Of a DNA stretch of 64,000 bases, positions 37,230 through 57,264 are shown in pieces. Position numbers and translations under genes: made by a program. Numbering within the stretch: position 1 is the first letter of the stretch; every line of letters begins with the position of its first letter. The DNA lies in the NCBI GenBank assembly GCA_000092065.1, contig CP000594.1; one strand, given 5' to 3'. The notes under the pieces were generated by a model. That model had not been told where the DNA came from, searched no databases, and was given only the letters and a program-made list of their open reading frames with translations. The DNA comes from Ostreococcus lucimarinus (taxonomy: Eukaryota).

Positions 37230-38537
37230 TTAATCGCGACCGGAATCGCGCGCGGCGTTCCGGATTTCGGTGCTACTGACGTCGACGCGAAAAGACGGGA
37301 GGGCGGCGAAGAGGTCGGCGGCGCGGCGCGCGGCGGCGGCGGCGAGGACGTCGGCGGCGGGGACGAAGGCGCGAGAGACGCGGTCGACGCGGCCGGCGAC
37401 GAGGAAATCGCACGCGTTGGCTCGGATTTCGTTGAGGGATTCGTCGAGGGCGGCGTCGGAGCCGGCGTATTTGGGGTCGAGGAGACGCGCGGCGGTGTCG
37501 GCGCCGACGACGAAGGCGGCGCCGGGGGCGGCGCGGGTCTTGTCCACGAAGAGTGGGGTTTTGGTGAGTAAACACACCGTGCCGGGGGTGGAGAACTGCT
37601 CGAGTCGACGCATGATCTCGTCTATGGAGAGCGTCCCCTTGTCGGCGTTCGTGACGCCGATTTCGTACGCGCCGAGCGCGCCCGGGGGCTTTGTCGCCGT
37701 CGCCGCGGCGAGCAAGTCGCGGTGGCCGTCGTGCAAAGGGTTGAACGACCCACTCAACACGACGTTCGCACGCGTGGCGCCCACTGCGGTGAGCACGCCC
37801 CCCGTGAATTCCAAAATCATCGGCGCCGCGGTGGTGGCACCGCTCGTCGACGAGTCGTCCTCCGCCAACCACCGCTCGACGACGGCGCGAGCGTCGCTCG
37901 CGTTTGCGTACGCCGAATCCTCCATCGTCGTCACCGAAACCTCGTCGAACTCGCGTTCGCTCAGAACTTCTCGCACTAAATCTACACCCGCGTCCGCGTC
38001 CGCGTCATCGACGCTCCGCCTCGCTTCCTCGTACAGCGCTCGCAACACCAACCGCGACGCGCAGCCCTCCTCGTCGAACCGCGAGCGCCCGCTCGTCTTC
38101 TCCAATCGCATCTCGTACGTCGTCATCCGCCCCAGCGTCTTCGCCGCCACGAAACATCTGTGGTCGCCTCGTTTGACGACGTCCTCCGTCGTCAGCGCGC
38201 ACGTCGCGCCGAGGCCCGTCGTCGCTCGCGCGTCGCTCGCCGACGCCGTCGCTCGCGAGCTTCCGTGTCGCACCGCCCTCGCGTACGCCGCGCTCGCCAG
38301 CGCCTCCGCGACTTCCCGCGAGCAGTACGATTCCACGTCATCGTCCGTCGCCCTCCCGAGCGTCTCGAGCGCGCTCTCGCGCGCGTACGGCACGCGCGCG
38401 TCCAATAAAGTGTTCGAGCACCTCGGGACGCTCGTCAGCCACCCGAGCGCGCGCGCCCCGCCGCCCGTGACGTGCAGCACCGCCCTGACCTTGCTCGCGT
38501 GGATCGTCTCCACGATGGCGCGGATTCCGGGCTCCAT
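37230..38537 (-). CDS. two-domain NAD-salvage protein: N-terminal CinA-C/PncC-like (NMN deamidase-type) domain fused to a C-terminal NadD/NMNAT-type nucleotidyltransferase domain
   Basis: N-terminal domain: VRAVLHVTGGGARALGWLTSVPRCSNTLLDARVPYARESALETLG...GLGATCALT...HRCFVAAKT...GRSRFDEEGCASRLVLRALYE fits the CinA C-terminal (PncC) pattern (TGG...S/T.PG.S..F..G.V.Y.N..K...LGV). C-terminal domain: NVVLSGSFNPLHDGHRDLL (the (H/T)xGH nucleotidyltransferase motif) and VSSTEIRNA (the NadD ISSTxIR motif). Confidence 0.7.
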   Translation of the reverse strand: MEPGIRAIVETIHASKVRAVLHVTGGGARALGWLTSVPRCSNTLLDARVPYARESALETLGRATDDDVESYCSREVAEALASAAYARAVRHGSSRATASASDARATTGLGATCALTTEDVVKRGDHRCFVAAKTLGRMTTYEMRLEKTSGRSRFDEEGCASRLVLRALYEEARRSVDDADADAGVDLVREVLSEREFDEVSVTTMEDSAYANASDARAVVERWLAEDDSSTSGATTAAPMILEFTGGVLTAVGATRANVVLSGSFNPLHDGHRDLLAAATATKPPGALGAYEIGVTNADKGTLSIDEIMRRLEQFSTPGTVCLLTKTPLFVDKTRAAPGAAFVVGADTAARLLDPKYAGSDAALDESLNEIRANACDFLVAGRVDRVSRAFVPAADVLAAAAARRAADLFAALPSFRVDVSSTEIRNAARDSGRD

Positions 38538-38693
38538 CGGCGCGCGCGCGACGCGGCGTCGCGCGGTGAAGTGCGACAGCGCGTCCCGGTCGTTCGTTCA
38601 AACGTTCGCGTCACACGTCGACGCGACGACGCGCTCGATCGCGCGCGCGCTCGCGAGCTCGAACGCAGGCGCGCATCGCGCGGTCGTCGACGC

Positions 38694-39059
38694 ATGCGCG
38701 CGAGGCGAACGGGCGCGGCGGCGGCGAACGAGGACGACGCGCGATTGGCCAAGTATCTCGTCGTGAACGCGGAAAACGTCGCGCACAACGCGCGAGTGAG
38801 CGCGCGAGTGTTCACGTACCTGAGCATCGTGTCCGGAATCGCGATCGGCGCGCTCGGATACACCGGAGTGCGAGGGTTCGCGGCGCACGGGGTGTTTATG
38901 CTGGCGAGCGCGTGCGCGGTGGCGGCGAGCAAGTGCGAGGGACGACCGACGAGTTTCTTTCCGTCCGTCGATAAGGTGTTCCTGGACGGACCGAACGCTG
39001 GATTGCCGACGTTTGTGTTGTTTTGGACGCTGTCGTATAATTGCTGGCACTTGTTTTAG
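38694..39059 (+). CDS. Rab5-interacting protein / EMC6-like small two-TM membrane protein
   Basis: 121 aa from the ATG at 38694. EDDARLAKYLVVNAENVAHNARVSARVFTYLSIVSGIAIGALGYTGVRGFAAHGVFML...AGLPTFVLFWTLSYNCWHLF resembles the Rab5ip/C20orf24 family. The upstream part of the track ORF is Arg-rich. Confidence 0.55.
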   Translation: MRARRTGAAAANEDDARLAKYLVVNAENVAHNARVSARVFTYLSIVSGIAIGALGYTGVRGFAAHGVFMLASACAVAASKCEGRPTSFFPSVDKVFLDGPNAGLPTFVLFWTLSYNCWHLF

Positions 39060-39079
39060 ACGGTCGGAGGAGAGGGATC

Positions 39080-41209
39080 ATGAACACGGCGGCGCTGGTG
39101 AAGCGACAGCGGCGACCGGTGACGTATTCGCTTCCGCAGCCCGAGTACGCGAACAAGCACGTCGGTGGGGTGAACGCGGTGGACTTGGGAGGAGAGGGAT
39201 CCGATAGCATATTCACCGGTGGGCGCGATGGGACGGTTCGGATGTGGGATCTGTCGGCGGGGATGCCAGCGTGCGCGCGGCGGTTTGAAGGTCACGGCGG
39301 GTGGGTGAACGACGTCGCGAGAGTGTCGAGCACACATTTGGCGAGCGCTTCTAGCGATCACACCGTGCGGCTGTGGGATATAAGTGAAGGATCGATGTCG
39401 TCGTCTTGCGCGGTGGCTTTGCAGGGACACACAGATTACGTCATGGCGTTGGCGTGCGCGTCGGAACGCTTGGAAGGAAAGTTTGCTTCGGGCGGGCTCA
39501 ATCGCGAGATTTTCTTGTGGGACATCGAGCGATGTCTCGCGATCAATGCCGCGCCGTCGTATCTAAGCGTGAAGAATGATGGATGCGTCACCGCGCTGGG
39601 GGGCTCGAAGGAGTCCATCTACGCTTTGGGTATGGATGGGACTGGAAACTTGCTCGTCTCCGGCGGTACCGAGCTCGCGCTTCGCGTGTGGGACACGCGG
39701 AGCGCTCAAAAGGAAGGCAAACTCAAGGGACACACAGACAATGTTCGAGCAATCGTCGTCGACACGGATGGTAAAAAGTGCGTCACAGCGTCGAGCGATA
39801 GAACGATTCGTGTTTGGGACATTGGCGAGCAGCGATGCGTGCAGACGTTTGCGGGCATGCACACCGGGTCAATTTGGGCGCTCGCGTGCAACCGCGATTT
39901 CACTCGTGTATACTCGGGAGGTATCGATGCCCGGATATGCGTCACGTCGTTGCGTGATAGGAAAAGTAGTTTAGTCGCGAACGAATCGGCGGCTATTTTA
40001 AAGCTGCGCCTAGACGAGTCAACGCGCGCGAGCGGTTTCGCCGCGCACTCGTCGGACGGCGACTTGTGGACCGCCACTGCGTCGCGGTCGATCAAGCGCT
40101 GGCCGACGATCATCCCGGGCGAAGATGGCTCATCAGCGAACGTAGAAGACTCTCATGGAACGCCGACGAGCACCTCGTTCTCGCGTCGCGCCGCTGGATC
40201 GAGTCTTTTGCGGCAGCCGGGAACGTGGTTCGACGTCGGTTCGCCCGGGGCATTTTCGTTCGGCGGCACGACGCCGCGAAAGTTCGATAACTGGGGCGAT
40301 CCGCACGATCGTGAGCCCCAGGACTTAGTGCCGTCGATGGAGATTATCGGTGTGAGCCCGATCGTTCGTCACAGCGTGCTGAAGAACAAGATGGAGGTGT
40401 TGACGCAAGACTCCATGGGTGCCATCGCGCTGTGGGACGTGTCGCGATCGACCCCAATACGCACGTTCGACGGCGTCACCGATGGATCAGACTTCGAAAT
40501 TTTACTCGAAAATGAAAGTTTGAATCCAGATGTCGTCGTTCCATCGTGGTTTACCTGCAACACTCGTAGTGGTTCGCTCGCCATCACGCTCTCGCCAAGT
40601 TCGGCGTTCAACGCCGAGGCGTACGCGAGCGATCTGGGTATCGCTGACGCCGCGCCGGACGAGCGAAGAAATTTAGGTGTCGAAATCATTCGACTATTGA
40701 TGGATGAGTGGGTAGAAAAATTTACGTCGTCGAAACCTCCGCGATCAACGAAACGGGCGTTCGCCGAGCCGCTCCCGAGCGAGTGTGCGGTTTCGTTCGC
40801 GCACCCCATCGACGACAGCGGTCGCGTGTGCGTCAAGATTCGCGAAGACTTCTCGGGCACACCCACCGAGCGTGAGTTGCTTCCCAAATGGTTCGCCGAT
40901 CACGCCCTGAATCAAGCGCCCGAGCCGGAATCTCCAAAGATCAGTTTCCGCCTCGCCCCTCGCGCAGGCTCGGGTCTCGCTGAAATTTCCCCCGCGAGCG
41001 TCTCGGCGCCCAAGATTCTCGGCGCTCAGAAGATTCGCGAATACATCGCACAGAAGTTAGACGAAACAGATGGCGGAACGAGCACCGATGCCAGCGCGCT
41101 CGCGCTCTGGTGCGCCGGCCAACCCGTGCCGTCGTCGGCCACGCTCGCCGCCGCGCTCGCGCGCGTCTGGAAAAAATCGCCCCCGATCGAGCTCGAGTAC
41201 TCCAACTAG
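39080..41209 (+). CDS. WDR48: WD repeat protein 48 (WDR48/UAF1, USP1-associated factor) homologue
   Basis: Collinear similarity with WDR48 from the very N-terminus: PVTYSLPQPEYANKHVGGVNAVDL...GGRDGTVRMWDL...HGGWVNDVA...SASSDHTVRLWD...LKGHTDNVRAIVVDTDGKKCVTASSDRTIRVWDIGEQRCVQTF, plus the C-terminal WDR48 domain. The track start at 39041 is a TTG; the ATG is at 39080, only 20 bp after the Rab5ip-like stop. Confidence 0.9.
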   Translation: MNTAALVKRQRRPVTYSLPQPEYANKHVGGVNAVDLGGEGSDSIFTGGRDGTVRMWDLSAGMPACARRFEGHGGWVNDVARVSSTHLASASSDHTVRLWDISEGSMSSSCAVALQGHTDYVMALACASERLEGKFASGGLNREIFLWDIERCLAINAAPSYLSVKNDGCVTALGGSKESIYALGMDGTGNLLVSGGTELALRVWDTRSAQKEGKLKGHTDNVRAIVVDTDGKKCVTASSDRTIRVWDIGEQRCVQTFAGMHTGSIWALACNRDFTRVYSGGIDARICVTSLRDRKSSLVANESAAILKLRLDESTRASGFAAHSSDGDLWTATASRSIKRWPTIIPGEDGSSANVEDSHGTPTSTSFSRRAAGSSLLRQPGTWFDVGSPGAFSFGGTTPRKFDNWGDPHDREPQDLVPSMEIIGVSPIVRHSVLKNKMEVLTQDSMGAIALWDVSRSTPIRTFDGVTDGSDFEILLENESLNPDVVVPSWFTCNTRSGSLAITLSPSSAFNAEAYASDLGIADAAPDERRNLGVEIIRLLMDEWVEKFTSSKPPRSTKRAFAEPLPSECAVSFAHPIDDSGRVCVKIREDFSGTPTERELLPKWFADHALNQAPEPESPKISFRLAPRAGSGLAEISPASVSAPKILGAQKIREYIAQKLDETDGGTSTDASALALWCAGQPVPSSATLAAALARVWKKSPPIELEYSN

Positions 41210-41252
41210 CCGCGATCGCAACGTTCATCGTCGCGCCTGTTGTCATCTCCAC

Positions 41253-41261
41253 AAAAAAAAA
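41253..41261 (-). terminator. RNA polymerase III T-run terminator (9 T on the minus strand) immediately 3' of the tRNA-Ser
   Basis: Minus strand ...CGAATGCGAATTTTTTTTTG; plus strand aaaaaaaaa at 41253..41261. Confidence 0.75.
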
Positions 41262-41262
41262 T

Positions 41263-41344
41263 TCGCATTCGGCAGGATTTGAACCTACGCACGGAGACCG
41301 TATTCGATTTCTAGTCGAACCCCTTAACCACTCGGGCACGAATG
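41263..41344 (-). tRNA. trnS(AGA): tRNA-Ser (anticodon AGA), 82 nt, type II with a long variable arm
   Basis: Minus strand GCATTCGTGCCCGAGTGGTTAAGGGGTTCGACTAGAAATCGAATACGGTCTCCGTGCGTAGGTTCAAATCCTGCCGAATGCG. It has a 7-bp acceptor stem (GCATTCG/CGAATGC), a D-loop AGTGGTTAA and anticodon stem TTCGA/TCGAA with loop CTAGAAA (anticodon AGA). The T-arm is GTAGGTTCAAATCCTGC and the discriminator is G. It is near-identical in layout to the cytosolic tRNA-Ser(AGA) of animals and plants as I recall it. It lies 54 bp beyond the WDR48 stop on the opposite strand. Confidence 0.9.
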
Positions 41345-42151
41345 CTCGTCGCGGACGCCGCGCGCTTCGACACATGGTCAAATCACACATTAAATACGTC
41401 GCACACACACCTAAAAAAACATAAACTTCAATCTCAGACCCCCGACGCGATCGCGCGACGCGTGTTACAGGTTTTTCCCGATCCCCCTCGATCGCGCGCC
41501 GACGTCACGCGATCGCGTCGCCGCGCGGTCGATCGATCGCCGATCGCCGTCGTCGAACCTCGCCGCGTCGATCGATGATCACGCGCGGACGATGCGGTGA
41601 GGTTCGACGCCCGCGCGGGCGCGTCGATCGCGAATATTCTCGAGACGTCGGGCCGCCGCGCGCACTTTACTTTACGTCGCGTGGTCGAACGACACACAGC
41701 AGGTGCGCGAGCGATGCGAGCGCGCGTGACCGAGACGCGCGCGCGCGGGAAATATTCCGCCGCGCGTTCGCGCGCGCGGAGGCGCGGCGCGGCGCGGGAT
41801 CGGGGCGAACGGACGCGCGATGGGACGCGCGCGCGATGATGATCCGTCCGCGGCGGCGGGTTATCTTGACGCGTGGCGTCGCGCGCGACGCGAATATGTC
41901 GGGGCTCGCGCGGTAATACCGCGCGGGAAATCGCGTGCGTCGATCCTGCGCGTCCGTGGGGGATGTCGCGGCGCGATCGCGCGGTGGGATGGGAAGATGT
42001 TGAAGATCTTGGATTTTTGGGACGAGGCGCGGGTGACGGCGCGCGGCGGCGCGGACGTCGAGGCGAAACGAACGAACCGGAAGACTGACGACGGCGAACG
42101 CGCTGAAAACGAGCAGTAAACCGCACATCAACACACTCCACAGACATAAAT

Positions 42152-47339: not shown

Positions 47340-49592
47340 CTACGCGTCGTCGTCGTCGTCGTCGTCGGCGGCGGGGCGTCGGCCGGCGTGCGCGGCGTTG
47401 ATCTCGCGAGCCTCGCGGCGGAGGGACTTGACGACGCGGCGGTCGGCGCGGGCGGCGCGGGCGTCGGAGAGCGCGCGCGCGGAGGCGCGCGACGGACGCT
47501 GCCAGGCGCTGCTTCGGCGCGCGGGCGCGCGGGACGGGGCGTGGGAGTGGCCGTGGGCGTGGGCGTGGACGCGAGACGCGTCGGTGGACGCGGCGTGGGA
47601 GTGGCCGTGGGCGCGCTGGGCGCGTTTTTGGGCCTTGGCTTTGGCGGCGTCGGCGGAGGCGGCGGTTTCGGCGACGGCGAGGGCGCGGTCGGCCCAGGCG
47701 TAGGCGCTTTGCATCGCGGCCTGCGCGCCTTTGGTGGATTTGAGTTCGGTTTTGAACTCCTTTCGCGTCGACACCGGAACGAGGGCGCCGGCGTGATCTT
47801 TAGTCGCGCCGGGCGGCGCGACGACGAAGTCGTTCGCCGAACGAACGTCGACGAAGACGTCGGAAGAACGCGCGTCGACGTCGGCCGCGGACGCCGCGTT
47901 CGCCCTCGTCGCGGCTTTGTTAATTTCGTCGACGCGAAGCGCGTTCACGTCGTCCAGCATGCGGCGTCGCGCGCCTTCGAGATCTGTAATCATGCGCGTC
48001 GGGTACGTCGATCCCAACTCGACGCCCGCGGCGTCGAGCTGCTTCGCCGACGCTTCCCACGGGCGGTGTCGCAGGTGCCCTTTCGGCAGCGCCGCGAGCT
48101 CTGGAATCCATCGAGCGATGCTCTCGCCTTCGGGGTCGTGCGCTCGAGAGGATCCATCTGGGGTCAACGAACCCGCGAAGACGTCCCACTGATCGAGTCC
48201 GCTCTTTCCCGCGTTTTGCCACATCATGGAATTGATCGCCAAGTCCGCGTCCACGAGAGTGTCGAGGAACCAATCTGCGCCGTGCGTCCAATGAACGCCG
48301 CAGTAATCGACGAGAAACGTGGCCGCAATCATGCGTTCACTCTGATGCATCCATCCGGTGGCCCAAAGCCGGCGCATGCCCGCGTCCACGGTGGGGAAGC
48401 CCGTCGTTCCAGTTTGCCATCGATGAAGCGCAACGGCGGCTTCGTCGCCCTCCAACCAAGCCTTGCGATTCTCGTAGTGCCCACGCACGGACTTGGACGG
48501 TAACTCGGGCCAGTTGTGCAGTTGCCAGTACGCAAACTCTCGGCGATAGAGACGGTGCCAAAACACGCGAGAGAGCTTTTTGCCCTCCACCCCGTCGCTG
48601 CCCATCTTTTTCGTCGCCAATTCGTGGTAAATCTGCCGCGGCGATATCTGACCATGGCGTAAATACGGTGAAAGCGTGCTCACCGCGGCCGGAGCGACGA
48701 TATCCGCTCTTCCGTGATCGTCCTCAAACTTCTCCAACCCCACCGAAGCGAAGTGCTCCCAAGTAGAGGCGGCGCCCGACTCCGACATCGTCCACTCCGC
48801 GCGAATCCCAGCCGCCCAGTCCAAGCGTTTATCTACGTCTGATACTATCCCTAATTCTTCTAACGACGCCGCGAATCCGTGCTCGGGGCCTAAATCCACC
48901 ACTCGCGCGCTCGCCGGCGCCGCGCGCGGCGCCCCCACTTTCCCTCCGAGCTTCTCCGCGGCGTGCACGAACGGCATGAGCGTGCCGAAAAAGTACTTTT
49001 CCCTCCTCAGATCGATCTGAATCTTCTCTGGCTCAAACAACAAGTACCCCGGCAAGCGCACGATCTCGCACGCGTCCCGCACGCTCGCCGCCGTCTCTTC
49101 GTCGTCCGCGTCCGCCGTCGGTTCGTACCGCCTCGACGCGAACGCGCGCGTCGCTCCCACTCCCCCGCACGCCGCTCGCATCGCCTCCGCGTGCGTCCCG
49201 CGATAATACGACAGTCCTCCTCCACCGTACCGTCGTCGCAGTTCGCGATCGAGCGCGTCCAGCGCTTCGACCAACCACGCCCTTCGCGCGCCTCTCGTCG
49301 TCTCGCCGTCTCGCGTCTCGTCCCACGCGAACACGCACGCCGTCTCGCCGCCGCGCCGTCGCGCCGTCTCCACCGCGGCGAGCAGCGCGGCGTTATCGCT
49401 CACGCGCAGGTCGTGGTCTCGGAACCACGCGACGGCGCCGCGACGCGCGTCGTCGGCGTCGCGCTGACGATTTGTGTCGCCCTCGACGTCACGCGTCGCG
49501 CGCGGCGCGAACCGTCGTGCGGCGCGCGTCGCGGGCGAGGACGCGCGCGCGGCGATCGGCGTCGCCGAGCTCGCGCGCGCGCCGAGGCGCAT
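47340..49592 (-). CDS. cryptochrome/photolyase-family flavoprotein (plant-type cryptochrome-like) with long C-terminal extension and presequence-like N-terminus
   Basis: WFRDHDLRVSDNAALLAAV is the photolyase N-terminal motif. TGFPTVDAGMRRLWATGWMHQSERMIAATFLV resembles plant CRY ([33 protein letters not shown]). The C-terminal extension of about 250 aa has His-rich HGHSHAAS...HAHAHGHSHAPS and a poly-Asp end. Start at the ATG at 49592. Confidence 0.85.
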   Translation of the reverse strand: MRLGARASSATPIAARASSPATRAARRFAPRATRDVEGDTNRQRDADDARRGAVAWFRDHDLRVSDNAALLAAVETARRRGGETACVFAWDETRDGETTRGARRAWLVEALDALDRELRRRYGGGGLSYYRGTHAEAMRAACGGVGATRAFASRRYEPTADADDEETAASVRDACEIVRLPGYLLFEPEKIQIDLRREKYFFGTLMPFVHAAEKLGGKVGAPRAAPASARVVDLGPEHGFAASLEELGIVSDVDKRLDWAAGIRAEWTMSESGAASTWEHFASVGLEKFEDDHGRADIVAPAAVSTLSPYLRHGQISPRQIYHELATKKMGSDGVEGKKLSRVFWHRLYRREFAYWQLHNWPELPSKSVRGHYENRKAWLEGDEAAVALHRWQTGTTGFPTVDAGMRRLWATGWMHQSERMIAATFLVDYCGVHWTHGADWFLDTLVDADLAINSMMWQNAGKSGLDQWDVFAGSLTPDGSSRAHDPEGESIARWIPELAALPKGHLRHRPWEASAKQLDAAGVELGSTYPTRMITDLEGARRRMLDDVNALRVDEINKAATRANAASAADVDARSSDVFVDVRSANDFVVAPPGATKDHAGALVPVSTRKEFKTELKSTKGAQAAMQSAYAWADRALAVAETAASADAAKAKAQKRAQRAHGHSHAASTDASRVHAHAHGHSHAPSRAPARRSSAWQRPSRASARALSDARAARADRRVVKSLRREAREINAAHAGRRPAADDDDDDDA

Positions 49593-49666
49593 CGCGCGCG
49601 CGACGCGACGCGACGCGACGAGCGACGACGAATGGCGACGACGAACGGCGTCTCGTCTGGATTCGA

Positions 49667-50572
49667 TTAAATGTTGAGCGCGTGCGCGACGGATCCCGCG
49701 AGCTTCAAAACGACGAAAGGCGCGACGCCGCTGCACGCGCTGACGGTCTGCGGACACGAATCGGTGATCCAAAAGTTGGCGAACCCGGCGGACGGGTCGG
49801 TGAAACGACGCCAAGACTCGTTGGGAAAGACGCCGTGGGTGACGTAGGCGCTCACCGCGGAGGCGCCCTCGCGGCGAAGAACCTTGGCGCACTCGATGAG
49901 GGTGCCGCCGGATTGCACGAGATCGTCCACGATGACGATGTGCTTACCCGTGGGTTTGCCCTCCTTGATCGTGACGATGCGCTTGTCGCCCTCGCGAACC
50001 TTGGTGCAGACGACCTCGTCGTACTTGGCGAAAAAGTTGTGAAAGCGCTTGCACGCGCCCTCGTCGGGGTAGGCGATGACGACGTCCGCGGCGTCTTCTA
50101 AACTTGCTAATCGCTCCAACAAAAGCGGAATTCCCGATGCGAACAGCGGAGTGACGGAGTCACCGAAATAAAATCGCTCCTGAAGCGCGTGAATGTCGAA
50201 CACGATCATATCCGTCGGCCCGCCTCGCGAGTGCGGAATCGAGCTCAACATTCTCGCCATCGTCACCGCGGTGGGGATTTCTCCTTCCTTATCCACCCGT
50301 TCGAACGTACCGGTGGGGAAAAACGGTAAGATCAATCTGAACGACGCGACGAACATCTTGGGAAGGGAGTATATCACGCTAAGCTGTTGGAAAATCACAG
50401 ACGCGTTGTGAAACGACGCCAAAAACGCCACGTGCCGCCCGTGCAGCTGTTCCGCGTCGTTCACGAAAATGTTCGGGAAACCATCCGCGAACGTGCGCCA
50501 CTGAATCTCACCCAACTCAATGTTTCCGTCGATCGCCGCGATCTCTCTCGCCATTTGTTCCATCTGTTCCAT
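49667..50572 (-). CDS. PRS: ribose-phosphate pyrophosphokinase (PRPP synthetase), class II plant type
   Basis: [13 protein letters not shown]...VAFLASFHN...PRPP-binding loop [22 protein letters not shown]; flexible loop and Mg site present. Confidence 0.85.
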
Positions 50573-54591: not shown

Positions 54592-56151
54592 CTACCCTCT
54601 GTCCGCGTTCAAATCCCCGTCGTTCTCTATCGGTGCCACCTCGTTTTCGTCCGTCTGTAAAGCCTCGAGCACGGCCCTTCGTTCCATCTCTACGTCGTGA
54701 TCGATGGTAAATGTAATGCAGGCCAAAATAACGCCACACACAAACCAAAAGGTAAACGCCACGTTGAACGCCACTCGTCTGCCCATGCTCACGATGAGCA
54801 AGGCGACCAGCGCGGGTCCACCGCCTTTACCGACGTCGTCAATTTGTGAGTAAAATGCAAACATACTTCCACGAGTTTCCGGCGGGTTGACATTCAACAA
54901 AATTGCGCGCACATTGGGCGGTGTCACCGAGCAGAAAACGCCGCCGACGAGGCACGACAGGTACAAACCGACCCTCCCCGGACCGTAGTCGTTGACGTTG
55001 AGATAGTAATACGCTGGAAGTGCTCCAATAGCGGTCGTCAGTCCCATTAAAATCGGAAGTTCGCTCTTCTTCTTATTGTACATCCTCTGACCGATGAATC
55101 CTCCCCCAATGGTGCCGAAGGCGGAGCCCAAGCCGAAGACGGTGATGGCCGCCGTGGCGTTTTGCACCGTCATACCCTTTTGCTTATGTAAAAAGTCGAC
55201 AAAGTACGAATTGAACACCCCCCACGGCACCGTGCCCGGCAAGCCTTGCGCAAGCACGAGGATGTTGGTCTTCACAAGCAATTGCTTCTTGACCTTGCTC
55301 CAATTCATCTTGGCTTTATACGAAACATCTCCCGCTTCGTCGCCGCTTTCGAGCTCGTCCTCCGTCTGCGCCGTCGTTTGTTCGTCGGAATCATCCCGCT
55401 CAGCGACATTTTTCGTTGAATTCCTTCGCATCGTCATTCGATGAACTTCTTCCTCCTGAGCGCCACGCTTGGGCTCGTCGACGACGAGAACCATCACCGT
55501 TGCGAGCACGACCGCGGGCGCGGATGTGAGGATGAACGGTAGTCGCCACCCGTACGCCGGCCCTACCGTACCCGCCACCACTTGTCCGAGCGCCACTCCC
55601 GCTCCCGTCGCGATCGTCAAAAAACTCGCCACGTAACTCCGCTCATGACTCGCAAACAAATCTCCGCACAACGAGAACAACAGCGGTAAGCATCCGCCCA
55701 CCGCGATGCCCGTCATCGCGCGAAGCGCAAACAACTGCCAATAACTCGTCACCCAATACGTCGCCATGCACGGCCCTTCACCGATCAGTGTCGTCCAAAA
55801 GAACAAACGCACTCGACGCACTCGATCGGCGTAGTACCCGATGATCAGCGACGCCGGCGAGCCGACGACGAAAAACGCCAGCTGGAGCAACCCGCCCAGC
55901 TTGACATCCTTCTCTTTTTCATCCATCCCGAACTCCTCCGCTATGGCGCTCATGTTCGGCCCGATGAGGTTTTGATCGGCGTACAGGAACAGAGAAGTGG
56001 CCGTGATCAACCCGACGACGCCGTAGCGCTTCCATCGCTCGCGTCGCGCAAGTCTACGCCGTTGAAAACTCACGGAAGATGATGTCCCCGCCGCTGGGAT
56101 AGCTTCGCCTTCGCGAGGCGCTCGGGACGCGTCGGAGGACTCAGAGGGCAT
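54592..56151 (-). CDS. major facilitator superfamily transporter, Spinster-like
   Basis: 12-TM MFS topology with GVVGLITATSLFLYADQNLIGPNMSAIAEEFGM...YADRVRRVRLFFWTTLIGEG...MTGIAVGGCLPLLFSLCGDLF; the resemblance to Spinster (SPNS) is by motif only and is tentative. Start at the ATG at 56151 (MPSESSD). Confidence 0.75.
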   Translation of the reverse strand: MPSESSDASRAPREGEAIPAAGTSSSVSFQRRRLARRERWKRYGVVGLITATSLFLYADQNLIGPNMSAIAEEFGMDEKEKDVKLGGLLQLAFFVVGSPASLIIGYYADRVRRVRLFFWTTLIGEGPCMATYWVTSYWQLFALRAMTGIAVGGCLPLLFSLCGDLFASHERSYVASFLTIATGAGVALGQVVAGTVGPAYGWRLPFILTSAPAVVLATVMVLVVDEPKRGAQEEEVHRMTMRRNSTKNVAERDDSDEQTTAQTEDELESGDEAGDVSYKAKMNWSKVKKQLLVKTNILVLAQGLPGTVPWGVFNSYFVDFLHKQKGMTVQNATAAITVFGLGSAFGTIGGGFIGQRMYNKKKSELPILMGLTTAIGALPAYYYLNVNDYGPGRVGLYLSCLVGGVFCSVTPPNVRAILLNVNPPETRGSMFAFYSQIDDVGKGGGPALVALLIVSMGRRVAFNVAFTFWFVCGVILACITFTIDHDVEMERRAVLEALQTDENEVAPIENDGDLNADRG

Positions 56152-56361
56152 GAAACTTCGCGCGCGCGTTAAAAGCGATACGATGCACGAACCGCGGCGC
56201 GCGCACCGTCGCGCGCGGGCGCGCGCCGATGTACGGCTCGCGCGCGGGCTGGGACGCTCAACAACTCTTTCGGGACGAGCGCGCGCGCGGCGAAATACAC
56301 AACACATCATATTTATTGCACTAAGTTTCATCGAGCGCTCGCGACCAGTCGCGCGGAATCA

Positions 56362-57264
56362 TTATTGACGACCTCCTGAGCGCTGCAAAGCGGCGAGTTT
56401 CGCTTTAGTCGCCACGAGTTCGCGGCGGAGCGCGGCGTTTTCCTCTTCGAGCGCTCGCATCGCGCTCTCGCGCTTTTCGCGACTTCTCGCCGCGCTCTCG
56501 CGGTTACGGAACAGCCGCTCTTGCATGCGGAGCGCTTTCTCGGCTTCGGTCTCTTTCGGGGCGCCTTTCGGCTTCCGTCCCATCTTGAGCGGGGCGATGG
56601 CTTGTCGAAACGCCGGAGGCGTGGCGATGCCGCTGCGCTTCTTCAACCGCTTGGGTTCGTAGGACACGCCCGGAACGGTGGGAACTATCATCATCGACAC
56701 CCGGGACGGCGCACTCCCCGTCGTTTTCGTCGTCGTCGTTTTCTTCACCGCGGTCGCCCTCCCGTTCGTCGCCCTCTTCGCCTTCGCCTTCGCCGTCTTC
56801 CCCGCCGTCACCGTCGCCGTCGTCGTCGCCGCTTCATCCCCCCCGGCGTCCGCCAGCGCCAGCGCCGTCGTCAACTGCATGAAATTCATCGTCGGCAGGC
56901 TCGGCAGGCTCGGCAGGCTCGGCTCGCGTCCCCGCGCCGTCCCGCTCGCGCCGCTCGAATTAATCTTCGCCCACACGTCTCCCATGCTCTGCCGTCCCGC
57001 CTCGTCCGGCAATCGATCGAATATTTTCGCGTCGATCGTCGACGCCTGTCGCGCCACCGCCGTCGCCACCTCGCGCATCGTCGCCGTCGCCGCGTCCGCG
57101 CCTCGTCCGAGCGCGTCCAGCGTCAGCCCGAGCGCGGGGTCGTCCGCGTGCGCGCTCAGCGTCGGGACGAGCTCGCGCGCCCATTTACGCAGCGAATCAT
57201 CGCGCATCACCGCGTCGTCACCGTCGTCCGTCGTCGCGTCGCGTCGCGTCGCCGCGCGCGGCAT
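56362..57264 (-). CDS. bZIP transcription factor
   Basis: C-terminal basic region-leucine zipper KETEAEKALRMQERLFRNRESAARSREKRESAMRALEEENAALRRELVATKAKLAAL. I placed the start at the ATG at 57264 (MPRAATRRD); the start is uncertain. Confidence 0.6.
   Translation of the reverse strand: MPRAATRRDATTDDGDDAVMRDDSLRKWARELVPTLSAHADDPALGLTLDALGRGADAATATMREVATAVARQASTIDAKIFDRLPDEAGRQSMGDVWAKINSSGASGTARGREPSLPSLPSLPTMNFMQLTTALALADAGGDEAATTTATVTAGKTAKAKAKRATNGRATAVKKTTTTKTTGSAPSRVSMMIVPTVPGVSYEPKRLKKRSGIATPPAFRQAIAPLKMGRKPKGAPKETEAEKALRMQERLFRNRESAARSREKRESAMRALEEENAALRRELVATKAKLAALQRSGGRQ

What the first reader, a model, noticed from the sequence alone, without database searches (positions are those of the whole stretch)
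39041..39082. Only 20 bp separate the stop codon of a Rab5ip/EMC6-like gene from the WDR48 start codon on the same strand
The Rab5ip-like ORF ends with TAG at 39057..39059. The WDR48 ATG at 39080 is fixed by N-terminal homology, because the first WD repeat begins within 40 residues. Two unrelated proteins so close together imply overlapping UTRs, a dicistronic transcript, or internal initiation. Other same-strand gene pairs in the window are spaced by about 100-200 bp.
Basis: seen in the sequence. Interest (0 to 1): 0.5.

Follow-up and report, generated by a model that had tools for sequence, protein, structure and literature searches.

The report
EMC6–WDR48 two-gene messenger in Ostreococcus
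Two unrelated genes, only 20 bases apart in this tiny marine green alga, are kept in the same order in every related picoalga I could find and are most likely made from one messenger RNA, a known green-algal habit not previously reported for this pair.

Summary
EMC6 runs from ATG 38694 to TAG 39057-39059. WDR48 starts at ATG 39080. The spacer is 20 nt and the two ORFs are in different frames. The window is Ostreococcus lucimarinus-like.

The pairing is not a local accident. All 77 informative metagenome contigs carrying the EMC6 C-terminus have WDR48 next on the same strand. Spacers range from 5 to 176 nt across Ostreococcus, Bathycoccus, Micromonas and other Mamiellophyceae-like lineages.

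Two RNA-derived contigs span both complete ORFs with their introns removed. One is an O. mediterraneus culture transcriptome contig that ends in a run of A. The other is a Micromonas contig bounded by sequencing adaptors.

EMC6 is depleted of ATG in all frames: 0 in Bathycoccus and Micromonas, 1-2 in Ostreococcus, against 3.5-6.3 expected. Its own AUG usually has a pyrimidine at -3, while the WDR48 AUG usually has a purine. EMC6 also lacks the AT-rich patch that follows nearly all other stop codons in the window.

Best reading: a conserved bicistronic mRNA, with WDR48 translated by leaky scanning. This would be a new member of the known green-algal polycistronic loci.

Main caveat: the RNA evidence is short-read assembly from sister taxa, not single molecules from this species.

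The parts
38538..38693 (+). 156-nt divergent intergenic region between the ATG of the minus-strand cytidylyltransferase-like gene (37230-38537) and the EMC6 ATG. This is the presumed shared promoter region and the 5' UTR of the EMC6-WDR48 transcript.
   Evidence: In O. mediterraneus the RNA contig L027 starts 58 nt upstream of the EMC6 AUG and 24 nt from the divergent neighbour's ATG. In Micromonas, L046 has an 81-nt leader. The transcription start in the window itself is inferred, not shown.
38694..39059 (+). ORF1: EMC6 (ER membrane protein complex subunit 6), 121 aa, intronless in this lineage. The start context is cgacgcATGc, with C at -3 and C at +4.
   Evidence: Pfam PF07019 at E=2.8e-18. 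The 90% cluster contains XP_001421223.1, Ostreococcus lucimarinus 'ER membrane protein complex subunit 6'. dN/dS is 0.2-0.45 against other Ostreococcus. It has the lowest ATG density of the 35 predicted CDSs in the window.
38898..38900 (+). The only other ATG between the EMC6 start and the WDR48 start. It is in frame (Met69) and its context is gtgtttATGc, with T at -3 and C at +4.
   Evidence: This Met is conserved in the Ostreococcus lineages and absent in Bathycoccus and Micromonas.
39060..39079 (+). 20-nt purine-rich inter-ORF spacer, ACGGTCGGAGGAGAGGGATC. It contains no ATG. Its length is not a multiple of 3, so stop-codon readthrough cannot produce a fusion protein.
   Evidence: Homologous spacers are 5, 15, 18, 27, 32, 47, 53-65, 80 and 87-176 nt with no conserved sequence. 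No stable structure is predicted across the junction (z=+0.86).
39080..41209 (+). ORF2: WDR48/UAF1-like WD40 protein, 709 aa. The start context is gggatcATGa, with A at -3.
   Evidence: Pfam WD40 families plus PF11816. Homologues are named WD repeat-containing protein 48. The N-terminus is conserved from the first Met onwards.
41210..41263 (+). Presumed 3' UTR and cleavage region of the transcript. It is AT-rich with an A9 run, and it is followed by a minus-strand tRNA-Ser gene.
   Evidence: Maximum AT in a 30-nt window after the WDR48 stop is 0.70, against 0.40 after the EMC6 stop. In O. mediterraneus the RNA contig ends in an A8 run, read as a poly(A) tail, about 45-50 nt after the WDR48 stop.

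Best explanation
EMC6 and WDR48 form a conserved bicistronic nuclear locus of the kind already described in green algae. One promoter, in the 156-nt divergent region upstream of EMC6, drives a single capped, spliced and polyadenylated mRNA. That mRNA carries ORF1 (EMC6, 366 nt), a 20-nt spacer and ORF2 (WDR48, 2130 nt).

Some scanning 40S subunits initiate at the EMC6 AUG, which sits in a poor context. The rest scan past it and through an ORF1 that selection has kept almost free of AUG triplets. They then initiate at the WDR48 AUG, which has a purine at -3. This is leaky scanning.

Shown here:
- the exact anatomy of the locus;
- conservation of the gene pair across Mamiellophyceae-like lineages;
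- RNA contigs in two sister genera that carry both ORFs with introns removed;
- AUG depletion in ORF1;
- absence of a 3'-end-like AT-rich patch after EMC6.

Inferred:
- that the same single transcript exists in this species;
- that it is one molecule rather than overlapping ones;
- that leaky scanning, rather than reinitiation, feeds ORF2.

My probabilities are about 0.75 for a bicistronic mRNA and about 0.55 for the full bicistronic plus leaky-scanning model.
For: 1. Conservation of the pair.
- The EMC6 then WDR48 order on one strand appears in every lineage examined by contig look-up: Ostreococcus lineages with spacers of 20, 5, 27 and 47 nt, Bathycoccus with 15-18 nt, and a GC-rich Micromonas-like lineage with 80 nt.
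- A degenerate-pattern scan for the EMC6 C-terminus returned 80 metagenome contigs. Of these, 77 had enough downstream DNA, and all 77 carry WDR48 next on the same strand with spacers of 5-176 nt.
- The WDR48 proteins are only 34-38% identical between the deepest of these lineages, so the linkage is old.
- In Chlorella vulgaris no EMC6 lies near WDR48. A distant MMETSP WDR48 transcript, L028, is monocistronic.

2. RNA evidence.
- L027 is a 2700-nt contig from JGI sample 3300016841. Its WDR48 protein P0229 carries the MMETSP name Transcript_7259 and a UniRef entry for Ostreococcus mediterraneus.
- L027 has a 58-nt leader and EMC6 with the 189-nt genomic GT-AG intron (L014 5099-5287) removed. 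The 27-nt spacer and the complete WDR48 ORF follow. The contig ends in an 8-A run about 45-50 nt after the stop.
- L046 (OJDS01000853.1, 2944 nt, Micromonas) has Illumina adaptors at both ends. Three GT-AG introns are removed relative to genomic L071: one in EMC6 and two in WDR48. It contains an 81-nt leader, EMC6, a 61-nt spacer, WDR48 and a 32-nt trailer.

3. AUG depletion upstream of ORF2.
- Whole EMC6 CDS: 0 internal ATG in three Bathycoccus-like lineages and in Micromonas, and 1-2 in Ostreococcus. Same-length windows of the adjacent WDR48 ORF average 3.5-6.3.
- Last 240 nt of EMC6 plus spacer: 0 ATG in nearly all non-Ostreococcus lineages, against control means of 1.3-5.0. The exceptions are two Bathycoccus spacer variants that carry one ATG, a 2-codon mini-ORF in the spacer.
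- Under a codon-resampling null that keeps the protein sequence, out-of-frame ATGs number 0 in all 15 representative lineages, against a summed expectation of 15.6.
- In L046 the EMC6 start is the only ATG in the 472 nt upstream of the WDR48 AUG.

4. Start contexts. The EMC6 AUG has a pyrimidine at -3 in 8 of 9 lineages and never G at +4. The WDR48 AUG has a purine at -3 in 6 of 7.

5. 3'-end signature in the window itself. About 30 of 34 other genes have an AT-rich patch (at least 0.57 AT over 30 nt) within 120 nt after the stop. EMC6 has the lowest value, 0.40.

6. Fit to published features of green-algal bicistrons. These are a short ORF1, short inter-ORF distances (median 40 nt in Auxenochlorella, with some stop/start overlaps), a weak ORF1 Kozak context and ATG depletion upstream of ORF2 (PMC7896298, PMC11892635/PMC11291117).
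Against: - No RNA data from the window's own species were available.
- Both RNA contigs are short-read de novo assemblies. Such assemblies can fuse neighbouring transcripts whose ends overlap. van Baren et al. 2016 (PMC4815162) report exactly this problem for closely spaced Micromonas genes.
- In this window alone the ATG depletion is weak. It is 1 ATG against 4.3 expected from all window CDSs (P about 0.07-0.08). It looks stronger only against WDR48, which is itself ATG-rich.
- ATG avoidance in the 3' part of EMC6 would also be expected if that part served as the 5' UTR of a WDR48-only transcript.
- The -3 consensus in this genome is weak: purine in only 19 of 33 predicted starts. Kozak arguments therefore carry little weight.
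- Ostreococcus keeps an in-frame AUG (Met69), and O. mediterraneus also keeps an out-of-frame AUG that scanning ribosomes would have to skip.
- In Micromonas the spacers (59-176 nt) are ordinary for that genome. Its published mean intergenic distance is 167-211 nt.
- Adjacency alone could be plain synteny. The upstream minus-strand neighbour is conserved too.
Confidence: 0.65

Rival explanations
1. Two independent but overlapping transcription units in an ultra-compact genome. WDR48 would have its own promoter and TSS inside the EMC6 coding sequence, and EMC6 mRNA would be cleaved and polyadenylated inside the 5' part of the WDR48 coding sequence. The RNA contigs that span both ORFs would then be assembly fusions of overlapping transcripts. 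The conserved adjacency would be synteny, locked in because each gene's signals lie inside the other.
For: - The window is extremely compact. Convergent stop-to-stop gaps fall as low as 26 nt and divergent ATG-to-ATG gaps as low as 38 nt, so overlap of transcript ends must be common.
- Convergent overlapping pairs, and assembler concatenation of closely spaced genes, are documented for Micromonas (PMC4815162).
- ATG avoidance in the 3' half of EMC6 would also be expected of a 5' UTR.
- Embedded signals would also explain why the pair is never separated.
Against: - ATG depletion covers the whole EMC6 ORF, including its 5' part, in Bathycoccus and Micromonas. That is not needed if the WDR48 TSS lies within EMC6.
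- No AT-rich 3'-end-like patch lies within 120 nt downstream of the EMC6 stop, unlike about 30 of 34 other genes.
- L046 carries adaptors only at the outer ends: 81 nt upstream of EMC6 and 32 nt after WDR48. This suggests RNA termini pile up there.
- With 5-nt spacers, the whole promoter, TSS and 5' UTR of one gene and the whole 3' UTR and poly(A) signal of the other would have to sit inside coding sequence in every lineage.
Confidence: 0.2
2. The mRNA is bicistronic, but WDR48 is translated by termination-reinitiation. Ribosomes would translate EMC6, terminate at TAG and resume at the AUG 5-47 nt downstream. This would be translational coupling of the kind seen at calicivirus or influenza B stop-start sites.
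For: - The spacers are very short in Ostreococcus and Bathycoccus (5-32 nt), which is the geometry that favours reinitiation.
- Purine-rich spacers with GGGA-like motifs occur in several Ostreococcus lineages.
- In two Bathycoccus lineages the spacer holds a 2-codon mini-ORF (ATG TAC TGA/TAA) that ends 1 nt before the WDR48 AUG.
Against: - ORF1 is 110-140 codons, long for efficient reinitiation in eukaryotes without a dedicated element.
- No sequence or structure is conserved among the spacers or upstream of them, and the junction folds no better than shuffled sequence (z=+0.86).
- Spacers reach 125-176 nt in other lineages that keep the same pair.
- Reinitiation does not predict purging of AUGs from ORF1, which is observed.
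- In vivo mutagenesis in Chlamydomonas and Auxenochlorella favoured leaky scanning over reinitiation (PMC11892635).
Confidence: 0.1
3. Annotation artefact. Either the EMC6-like ORF is not a real expressed gene, or the true WDR48 start lies elsewhere (an upstream exon or a downstream Met). In that case the 20-nt gap would be illusory.
For: - Some assemblies of a near-identical strain (L010-L013) carry an extra G that frameshifts EMC6.
- JGI gene calls for some WDR48 cluster members start at an internal Met, giving 588 aa.
Against: - EMC6 matches Pfam strongly, is under purifying selection and is present and correctly spliced in RNA contigs.
- The window, L001 and six independent JGI contigs all lack the extra G.
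- The WDR48 N-terminus is conserved from the first Met in all lineages, and the upstream frame is closed.
- The RNA contigs show no exon spliced onto WDR48 across the spacer.
Confidence: 0.02

Closest known systems
Green-algal nuclear polycistronic (bicistronic) loci: Gallaher et al. 2021 PNAS (PMC7896298); 'Leaky ribosomal scanning enables tunable translation of bicistronic ORFs in green algae', PNAS 2025 (PMC11892635)
   Same: - Two unrelated, conserved proteins, each with its own start and stop, on one strand.
- A short ORF1 (366 nt) ahead of a long ORF2 (2130 nt).
- A very short inter-ORF spacer.
- ORFs usually out of frame with each other.
- A weak ORF1 start context.
- ATG depletion upstream of ORF2.
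- Collinearity conserved over deep divergence.
- No IRES-like structure.
   Different: - This pair is not named in the main texts or in the held supplements of those papers. The supplementary datasets of the 2021 paper were not available to me.
- Those studies only asked whether Chlamydomonas or Chromochloris bicistrons have collinear orthologues in O. lucimarinus and M. pusilla. They gave no transcript validation in Mamiellophyceae.
- This pair is not linked in Chlorella vulgaris, so it appears to be Mamiellophyceae-specific.
- The evidence here is short-read RNA contigs. There is no Iso-Seq, proteomics or reporter data.
CDC26-TTM3 bicistronic locus of land plants and green algae (cited in PMC11892635)
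   Same: An anciently conserved bicistron in Viridiplantae, with a small ORF1 upstream of a larger, unrelated ORF2 on one mRNA.
   Different: The genes are different. CDC26-TTM3 is experimentally established. This pair is restricted, as far as tested, to Mamiellophyceae.
Overlapping transcription units of ultra-compact eukaryotic genomes, for example the convergent overlapping pairs in Micromonas (van Baren et al. 2016, PMC4815162). Multigene transcripts of microsporidia and nucleomorphs are cited from my own knowledge.
   Same: Extreme gene density, spacers too short to hold separate promoter and terminator signals, and RNA coverage that runs across gene boundaries.
   Different: Those overlaps are regarded as by-products of compaction, and no translation of the downstream ORF from the shared RNA is implied. 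This locus instead shows a selection signature, AUG purging of ORF1, that only makes sense if ribosomes must traverse ORF1 or a leader overlapping it.
Viral termination-reinitiation (calicivirus TURBS, influenza B M2/BM2); from my own knowledge
   Same: The stop of ORF1 and the start of ORF2 lie within a few nucleotides of each other, 5 nt in two Ostreococcus lineages.
   Different: No conserved upstream motif or structure was found. Spacer length varies from 5 to 176 nt among lineages. AUG depletion of ORF1 is not a feature of that mechanism.
Spliced-leader operons of nematodes, kinetoplastids and tunicates; from my own knowledge
   Same: Co-transcription of adjacent same-strand genes.
   Different: Those polycistronic precursors are resolved into monocistronic mRNAs by trans-splicing. 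Here the processed RNA contigs (cis-spliced, one ending in a run of A) still carry both ORFs, and no leader is added at the WDR48 start.

Membership tests
Green-algal bicistronic loci translated by leaky scanning | Two non-overlapping ORFs on the same strand, each with its own start and stop codon, separated by a short inter-ORF spacer | tested here: met
   EMC6 38694-39059, a 20-nt spacer, then WDR48 39080-41209, in different frames.
Green-algal bicistronic loci translated by leaky scanning | Both ORFs encode real, conserved proteins, so ORF1 is not a regulatory uORF peptide | tested here: met
   Pfam EMC6 at E=2.8e-18, and WD40 plus PF11816. EMC6 dN/dS is 0.2-0.45. Homologues occur across Mamiellophyceae-like lineages.
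Green-algal bicistronic loci translated by leaky scanning | A processed (spliced, polyadenylated) RNA that carries both ORFs | tested here: met
   Met in relatives only. L027 (O. mediterraneus transcriptome) has the EMC6 intron removed and ends in an A8 run. L046 (Micromonas) has three introns removed and adaptors at both ends. Both are short-read assemblies. No RNA from the window's species was available.
Green-algal bicistronic loci translated by leaky scanning | Single-molecule proof (Iso-Seq or direct RNA) that transcripts are bicistronic, and exclusively or predominantly so | not testable with these tools
   No long-read RNA data can be reached with these tools. Assembly fusion of overlapping transcripts cannot be excluded.
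Green-algal bicistronic loci translated by leaky scanning | ORF1 is short relative to ORF2 and to monocistronic genes | tested here: met
   366 nt against 2130 nt. Published ORF1 medians are 291-600 nt.
Green-algal bicistronic loci translated by leaky scanning | Depletion of ATG triplets in all frames upstream of the ORF2 start | tested here: met
   0-2 ATGs in EMC6 against 3.5-6.3 in control windows. Zero out-of-frame ATGs in 15 lineages against 15.6 expected under codon resampling. In this window alone the effect is only marginal (P about 0.08).
Green-algal bicistronic loci translated by leaky scanning | Suboptimal Kozak-like context at the ORF1 AUG relative to ORF2 | tested here: inconclusive
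   Pyrimidine at -3 at the EMC6 AUG in 8 of 9 lineages, and purine at -3 at the WDR48 AUG in 6 of 7. However, the genome's own -3 preference is weak, 19 of 33 purine, and the lineages are not independent.
Green-algal bicistronic loci translated by leaky scanning | Independent translation of both proteins from the shared mRNA (terminal peptides, reporter or Kozak mutagenesis) | not testable with these tools
   Requires proteomics or reporter experiments.
Green-algal bicistronic loci translated by leaky scanning | Collinearity conserved across divergent species | tested here: met
   77 of 77 informative contigs across Ostreococcus, Bathycoccus, Micromonas and other lineages. Absent in Chlorella vulgaris.
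IRES-driven dicistronic mRNA | A structured or conserved RNA element in the inter-ORF region that recruits ribosomes internally | tested here: not met
   Spacers are as short as 5 nt with no conserved sequence. The junction fold has z=+0.86. Rfam finds nothing at the junction.
Stop-codon readthrough or fusion protein | ORF2 in frame with ORF1, with no intervening stop | tested here: not met
   Spacers of 20, 5 and 47 nt are not multiples of 3. The spacers of 15, 18 and 27 nt in Bathycoccus and O. mediterraneus are in frame and stop-free, but this is not general.
Termination-reinitiation (TURBS-like coupling) | A conserved upstream motif or structure, with stop and start held within a few nucleotides | tested here: not met
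   Spacer length varies from 5 to 176 nt. No conserved motif is found, and ORF1 is 110-140 codons.

The most novel reading that the evidence does not exclude
EMC6-WDR48 is an obligately bicistronic unit that has been kept intact throughout the Mamiellophyceae (Ostreococcus, Bathycoccus, Micromonas and relatives). If so, synthesis of a 700-830-aa deubiquitinase cofactor depends on ribosomes skipping a 110-140-codon ER-insertase subunit gene that has been purged of AUGs.

This would be the first transcript-supported bicistron specific to prasinophytes. Its natural spacers run from 5 to 176 nt. That makes it a ready-made comparative series for testing how spacer length and ORF1 AUG content set the ORF1:ORF2 output ratio. 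It could also serve as a compact two-gene expression cassette for Ostreococcus engineering.
Probability: 0.5. Interest if true: 0.55.

Novelty: new member of a known kind. Interest (0 to 1): 0.45.

Why it matters
Polycistronic nuclear mRNAs in green algae were recognised only in 2021. Their translation mechanism, leaky scanning, was tested only in Chlamydomonas and Auxenochlorella.

In the smallest free-living eukaryotes (Ostreococcus, Bathycoccus, Micromonas), the published work offers only collinear orthologues of Chlamydomonas or Chromochloris loci, without transcript evidence.

A pair that is linked in every Mamiellophyceae-like lineage sampled, has RNA support in two genera and carries an AUG-purged ORF1 would extend the phenomenon to this class. 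It would give a locus whose natural spacer series (5-176 nt) can be used to test the model. It also warns annotators that a 20-nt 'intergenic' gap here is not an error and that the two genes probably share one promoter.

It is not a new principle, so the value is incremental.

Tried and rejected
- Upstream exon or alternative start for WDR48: rejected. The frame is closed at 39038, the N-terminus is conserved from Met1, and the RNA contigs are colinear through the spacer.
- EMC6 as a spurious ORF: rejected.
- Readthrough fusion: rejected for this window because the 20-nt spacer puts the ORFs out of frame. The in-frame, stop-free spacers in Bathycoccus and O. mediterraneus are not general and are unremarkable by chance.
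- IRES or a structured element: no structure, no Rfam hit at the junction, and spacers as short as 5 nt.
- TGTAA as a poly(A) signal to locate an EMC6 3' end: not usable. Only 5 of 34 window genes have it within 150 nt of the stop. I used AT-richness instead.
- Kozak consensus from the window's 33 predicted starts: too weak to score contexts rigorously.
- Looking for the pair in the two PNAS papers: not named in the main texts, and no hit in the 7 held supplementary files of the 2025 paper. The 2021 paper's supplements are not held. A literature search for EMC6 with WDR48 and 'bicistronic' found nothing relevant.
- Lower synonymous divergence of EMC6 than of WDR48 (pS 0.45-0.55 against 0.66-0.70): noted but not used as evidence. 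EMC6 also has stronger codon bias, which could explain it.
- RNA or DNA status of the Bathycoccus-size contig L043 could not be decided, because there are no introns to discriminate.
- A first, careless search for all ATGs in the window was uninformative.
- The prokaryote-style gene calls on related contigs mis-placed several EMC6 starts inside introns. I corrected these by hand using the spliced RNA contigs.


Full report
**Observation**

The sequence is as described. An ORF on the + strand runs from ATG 38694 to TAG 39057-39059. The next 20 bases, 39060-39079, read ACGGTCGGAGGAGAGGGATC. A second ORF runs from ATG 39080 to 41209, and the two ORFs are in different frames.

Pfam identifies the 121-aa product as EMC6 (PF07019, E=2.8e-18). 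It identifies the 709-aa product as a WD40 protein with the WDR48-specific C-terminal domain PF11816.

The WDR48 frame is closed by TAA at 39038 with no intervening ATG. In every related lineage the conserved N-terminus begins at exactly this Met. The start codon is therefore well fixed.

The 90%-identity cluster of the EMC6 protein contains XP_001421223.1 from Ostreococcus lucimarinus CCE9901, so the window comes from that species or a close relative.

**How unusual is 20 nt here?**

I built a rough codon-usage gene map of the window, with 35 CDSs.
- Tandem stop-to-ATG gaps are 74, 82, 88, 99, 143, 153, 182, 198, 257 and 320 nt. There is one possible 30-nt case whose start codon is uncertain.
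- Convergent stop-to-stop gaps fall as low as 26 nt.
- Divergent ATG-to-ATG gaps fall as low as 38 nt.

So 20 nt is the smallest tandem gap, but it lies at the tail of a very compact distribution. Spacing alone would not make the pair special.

**Conservation**

Contigs encoding EMC6 or WDR48 relatives show the same order, EMC6 then WDR48 on the same strand.
- Ostreococcus lineages have spacers of 20, 5, 27 and 47 nt.
- Bathycoccus prasinos-like contigs have 15-18 nt.
- A GC-rich Micromonas-like lineage has 80 nt.

I then scanned the metagenome collection with a degenerate pattern for the EMC6 C-terminus (FWTL[SF]YN.C/WHL[FY]*). It returned 80 contigs, and 77 of these extend far enough downstream to be informative. 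All 77 carry WDR48 next on the same strand. Spacers are 5, 15, 18, 20, 27, 32, 53-65, 80, 87-89 and 125-176 nt.

The WDR48 proteins of the deepest of these lineages are only 34-38% identical to the window's, so the linkage is old.

Outside the class the pair is not linked. The Chlorella vulgaris WDR48 locus has no EMC6. A distant MMETSP WDR48 transcript, L028, is monocistronic with a 75-nt leader.

**RNA evidence**

Two RNA-derived contigs span both genes.

L027 is 2700 nt, from JGI sample 3300016841. Its WDR48 protein carries the MMETSP name Transcript_7259 and a UniRef entry for Ostreococcus mediterraneus.
- It aligns to genomic L014 in two blocks that skip a 189-nt GT-AG intron inside EMC6 (L014 5099-5287).
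- It has a 58-nt leader, the spliced EMC6 ORF, the 27-nt spacer and the whole WDR48 ORF.
- About 45-50 nt after the WDR48 stop it ends in an A8 run, which I read as a poly(A) tail.

L046 (OJDS01000853.1) is 2944 nt and comes from a Micromonas lineage.
- It has Illumina adaptors at both ends.
- It lacks three canonical GT-AG introns that are present in genomic contigs such as L071. One is in EMC6 and two are in WDR48.
- It contains an 81-nt leader, EMC6, a 61-nt spacer, WDR48 and a 32-nt trailer.

Processed RNA that carries both ORFs therefore exists in two genera flanking the window's species. The caveat is that both contigs are short-read assemblies. Overlapping neighbouring transcripts can be fused by assemblers, a problem reported for Micromonas (PMC4815162).

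**Sequence signatures of translation through ORF1**

*ATG depletion.* If ribosomes must scan past EMC6 to reach the WDR48 AUG, AUGs should be selected against in EMC6 in all frames.
- At the mRNA level, the EMC6 CDS has 0 internal ATGs in three Bathycoccus-like lineages and in Micromonas. It has 1 in the window and in two other Ostreococcus lineages, and 2 in O. mediterraneus and its relative. Same-length windows of the neighbouring WDR48 ORF average 3.5-6.3.
- Across 34 distinct sequences, the last 240 nt of EMC6 plus the spacer contain 0 ATGs in nearly all non-Ostreococcus lineages, against control means of 1.3-5.0. The exceptions are two Bathycoccus spacer variants that hold one ATG, a 2-codon mini-ORF.
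- Under a null that keeps each protein sequence and resamples synonymous codons, out-of-frame ATGs number 0 in all 15 representative lineages. The summed expectation is 15.6. Even if these are discounted to about seven independent lineages, this is unlikely by chance.
- In the Micromonas RNA contig the EMC6 start is the only ATG in the 472 nt that precede the WDR48 AUG.
- In the window alone the signal is marginal. EMC6 has the lowest ATG density of the 35 CDSs, but P is only about 0.08.

*Start contexts.* These point the same way. The EMC6 AUG has a pyrimidine at -3 in 8 of 9 lineages and never G at +4. The WDR48 AUG has a purine at -3 in 6 of 7. The genome's own -3 preference is weak, so I give this little weight.

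*3'-end signature.* About 30 of 34 other genes in the window have an AT-rich patch within 120 nt after their stop codon. EMC6 has the lowest value of all, 0.40, while WDR48 has a normal one, 0.70. This is the one line of evidence from the window's own sequence that EMC6 has no 3'-end formation site of its own.

*Structure.* The junction has no predicted stable structure (z=+0.86) and no Rfam match.

**Interpretation**

The anatomy matches the nuclear bicistronic loci described in green algae. Those have a short ORF1, a short spacer, unrelated conserved proteins, a weak ORF1 start, ATG depletion upstream of ORF2 and deep conservation of collinearity. Leaky scanning is the experimentally supported mechanism (PMC7896298; PMC11892635).

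I therefore read the locus as a conserved EMC6-WDR48 bicistronic mRNA. It would be driven from the 156-nt divergent region upstream of EMC6, with WDR48 translated by ribosomes that skip the EMC6 AUG and, in Ostreococcus, the weak in-frame Met69 AUG. I put about 0.75 on the bicistronic RNA and about 0.55 on the full model including leaky scanning.

The main rival, at about 0.2, is two overlapping independent transcripts whose signals are embedded in each other's coding sequence, with the RNA contigs being assembly fusions. Whole-ORF ATG depletion, the missing AT-rich patch and adaptor-bounded L046 argue against it but do not exclude it.

Termination-reinitiation on a shared mRNA gets about 0.1. 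The 5-32-nt spacers favour it. ORF1 length, spacer variability up to 176 nt, the lack of any conserved element and the ATG purging disfavour it.

**Novelty**

The pair is not mentioned in the two PNAS papers' main texts or in the held supplements. The literature search also found nothing.

Those studies examined O. lucimarinus and M. pusilla only for collinear orthologues of Chlamydomonas or Chromochloris loci, and without transcript validation.

This is therefore a new member of a known kind. It is apparently specific to Mamiellophyceae and has a useful natural series of spacer lengths. It is not a new mechanism.

**Side observations**

- The O. lucimarinus lineage has lost an EMC6 intron. 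That intron is present, in phase 2 at the same site, in three other Ostreococcus lineages.
- Four contigs from a small set of accessions (ERZ10646539, ERR9769284, ERR9769288 and one masked accession) carry an extra G that frameshifts EMC6. Eight other sequences do not.
- A tRNA-Ser(AGA) gene lies 55 nt after the WDR48 stop on the opposite strand.
- Another tandem pair in the window, 49667-50572(-) followed by 47340-49592(-), also lacks an AT-rich patch in its 74-nt gap.

Noticed in passing
window 47340-50572 (- strand): A phosphoribosyl-pyrophosphate-synthetase-like gene (49667-50572) lies 74 nt upstream of a photolyase/cryptochrome gene (47340-49592) on the same strand. It is the only other gene in the window with no AT-rich patch after its stop (max AT30 0.40, tied with EMC6). 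It may be a second co-transcribed pair.
   Followed up: partly
window 54592-57264 (- strand): A bZIP-like ORF (56362-57264) and an MFS transporter ORF (54592-56331) are only 30 nt apart if the first ATG of the transporter ORF is its real start. The MFS domain begins at residue 112, so the real start may be further downstream.
   Followed up: partly
window 41264-41345 (- strand): A tRNA-Ser (anticodon AGA) gene lies 55 nt downstream of the WDR48 stop on the opposite strand. It bounds the space available for the WDR48 3' UTR.
   Followed up: yes
window 38694-39059; L003 226-481; L014 5099-5287; L017 1706-1929: EMC6 is intronless in the window's lineage. Three other Ostreococcus lineages have a phase-2 GT-AG intron of about 190-260 nt at the same codon, after ...HNAR(V/A)xxx. 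Micromonas has an intron nearer the 5' end. This implies intron loss in the O. lucimarinus lineage, or repeated gain elsewhere.
   Followed up: partly
window about 38910-38920; L010-L013: Four near-identical contigs carry GGG where the window, L001 and six JGI contigs carry GG. The four come from ERZ10646539, one masked accession, ERR9769284 and ERR9769288. The extra G frameshifts EMC6 to a 93-aa product that lacks the last transmembrane helix. In L013 it is the only indel in 2791 nt, so it may be a real strain variant rather than a homopolymer error.
   Followed up: partly
L020 2983-3000; L051, L090 spacers: In two Bathycoccus lineages the EMC6-WDR48 spacer contains a 2-codon mini-ORF, ATG TAC TGA or ATG TAC TAA, that ends 1 nt before the WDR48 AUG. 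The stop is maintained by a TGA to TAA change. Other Bathycoccus lineages (15- and 27-nt spacers) lack it.
   Followed up: partly
L052 and L070 spacers; L036 and L074 spacers: Some spacers are built of simple repeats. A (GA)n run differs in length between contigs of a GC 0.44 lineage, giving 53 against 59 nt. A 13-nt unit, cgtctctttcgac, is repeated about four times in a Micromonas-like lineage with a 126-nt spacer. Spacer length therefore evolves by repeat slippage without breaking the pair.
   Followed up: no
window 25713-28522 and other convergent pairs: Several convergent gene pairs have only 26-84 nt between their stop codons, for example 25713-26711(+) and 26738-28522(-) with 26 nt. Antisense overlap of 3' UTRs must therefore be common in this genome.
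   Followed up: no
cluster of the window's EMC6 protein: The identical O. lucimarinus EMC6 sequence carries two RefSeq/GenBank accession pairs, XP_001421223.1/ABO99516.1 and XP_001421258.1/ABO99551.1. This suggests two gene models or a duplicated segment in the reference genome.
   Followed up: no
window 38694-39059 versus 39080-41209: Synonymous divergence between Ostreococcus lineages is lower in EMC6 (pS 0.45-0.55) than in the adjacent WDR48 (pS 0.66-0.70). This could reflect an extra RNA-level constraint on ORF1, or simply its stronger codon bias.
   Followed up: partly
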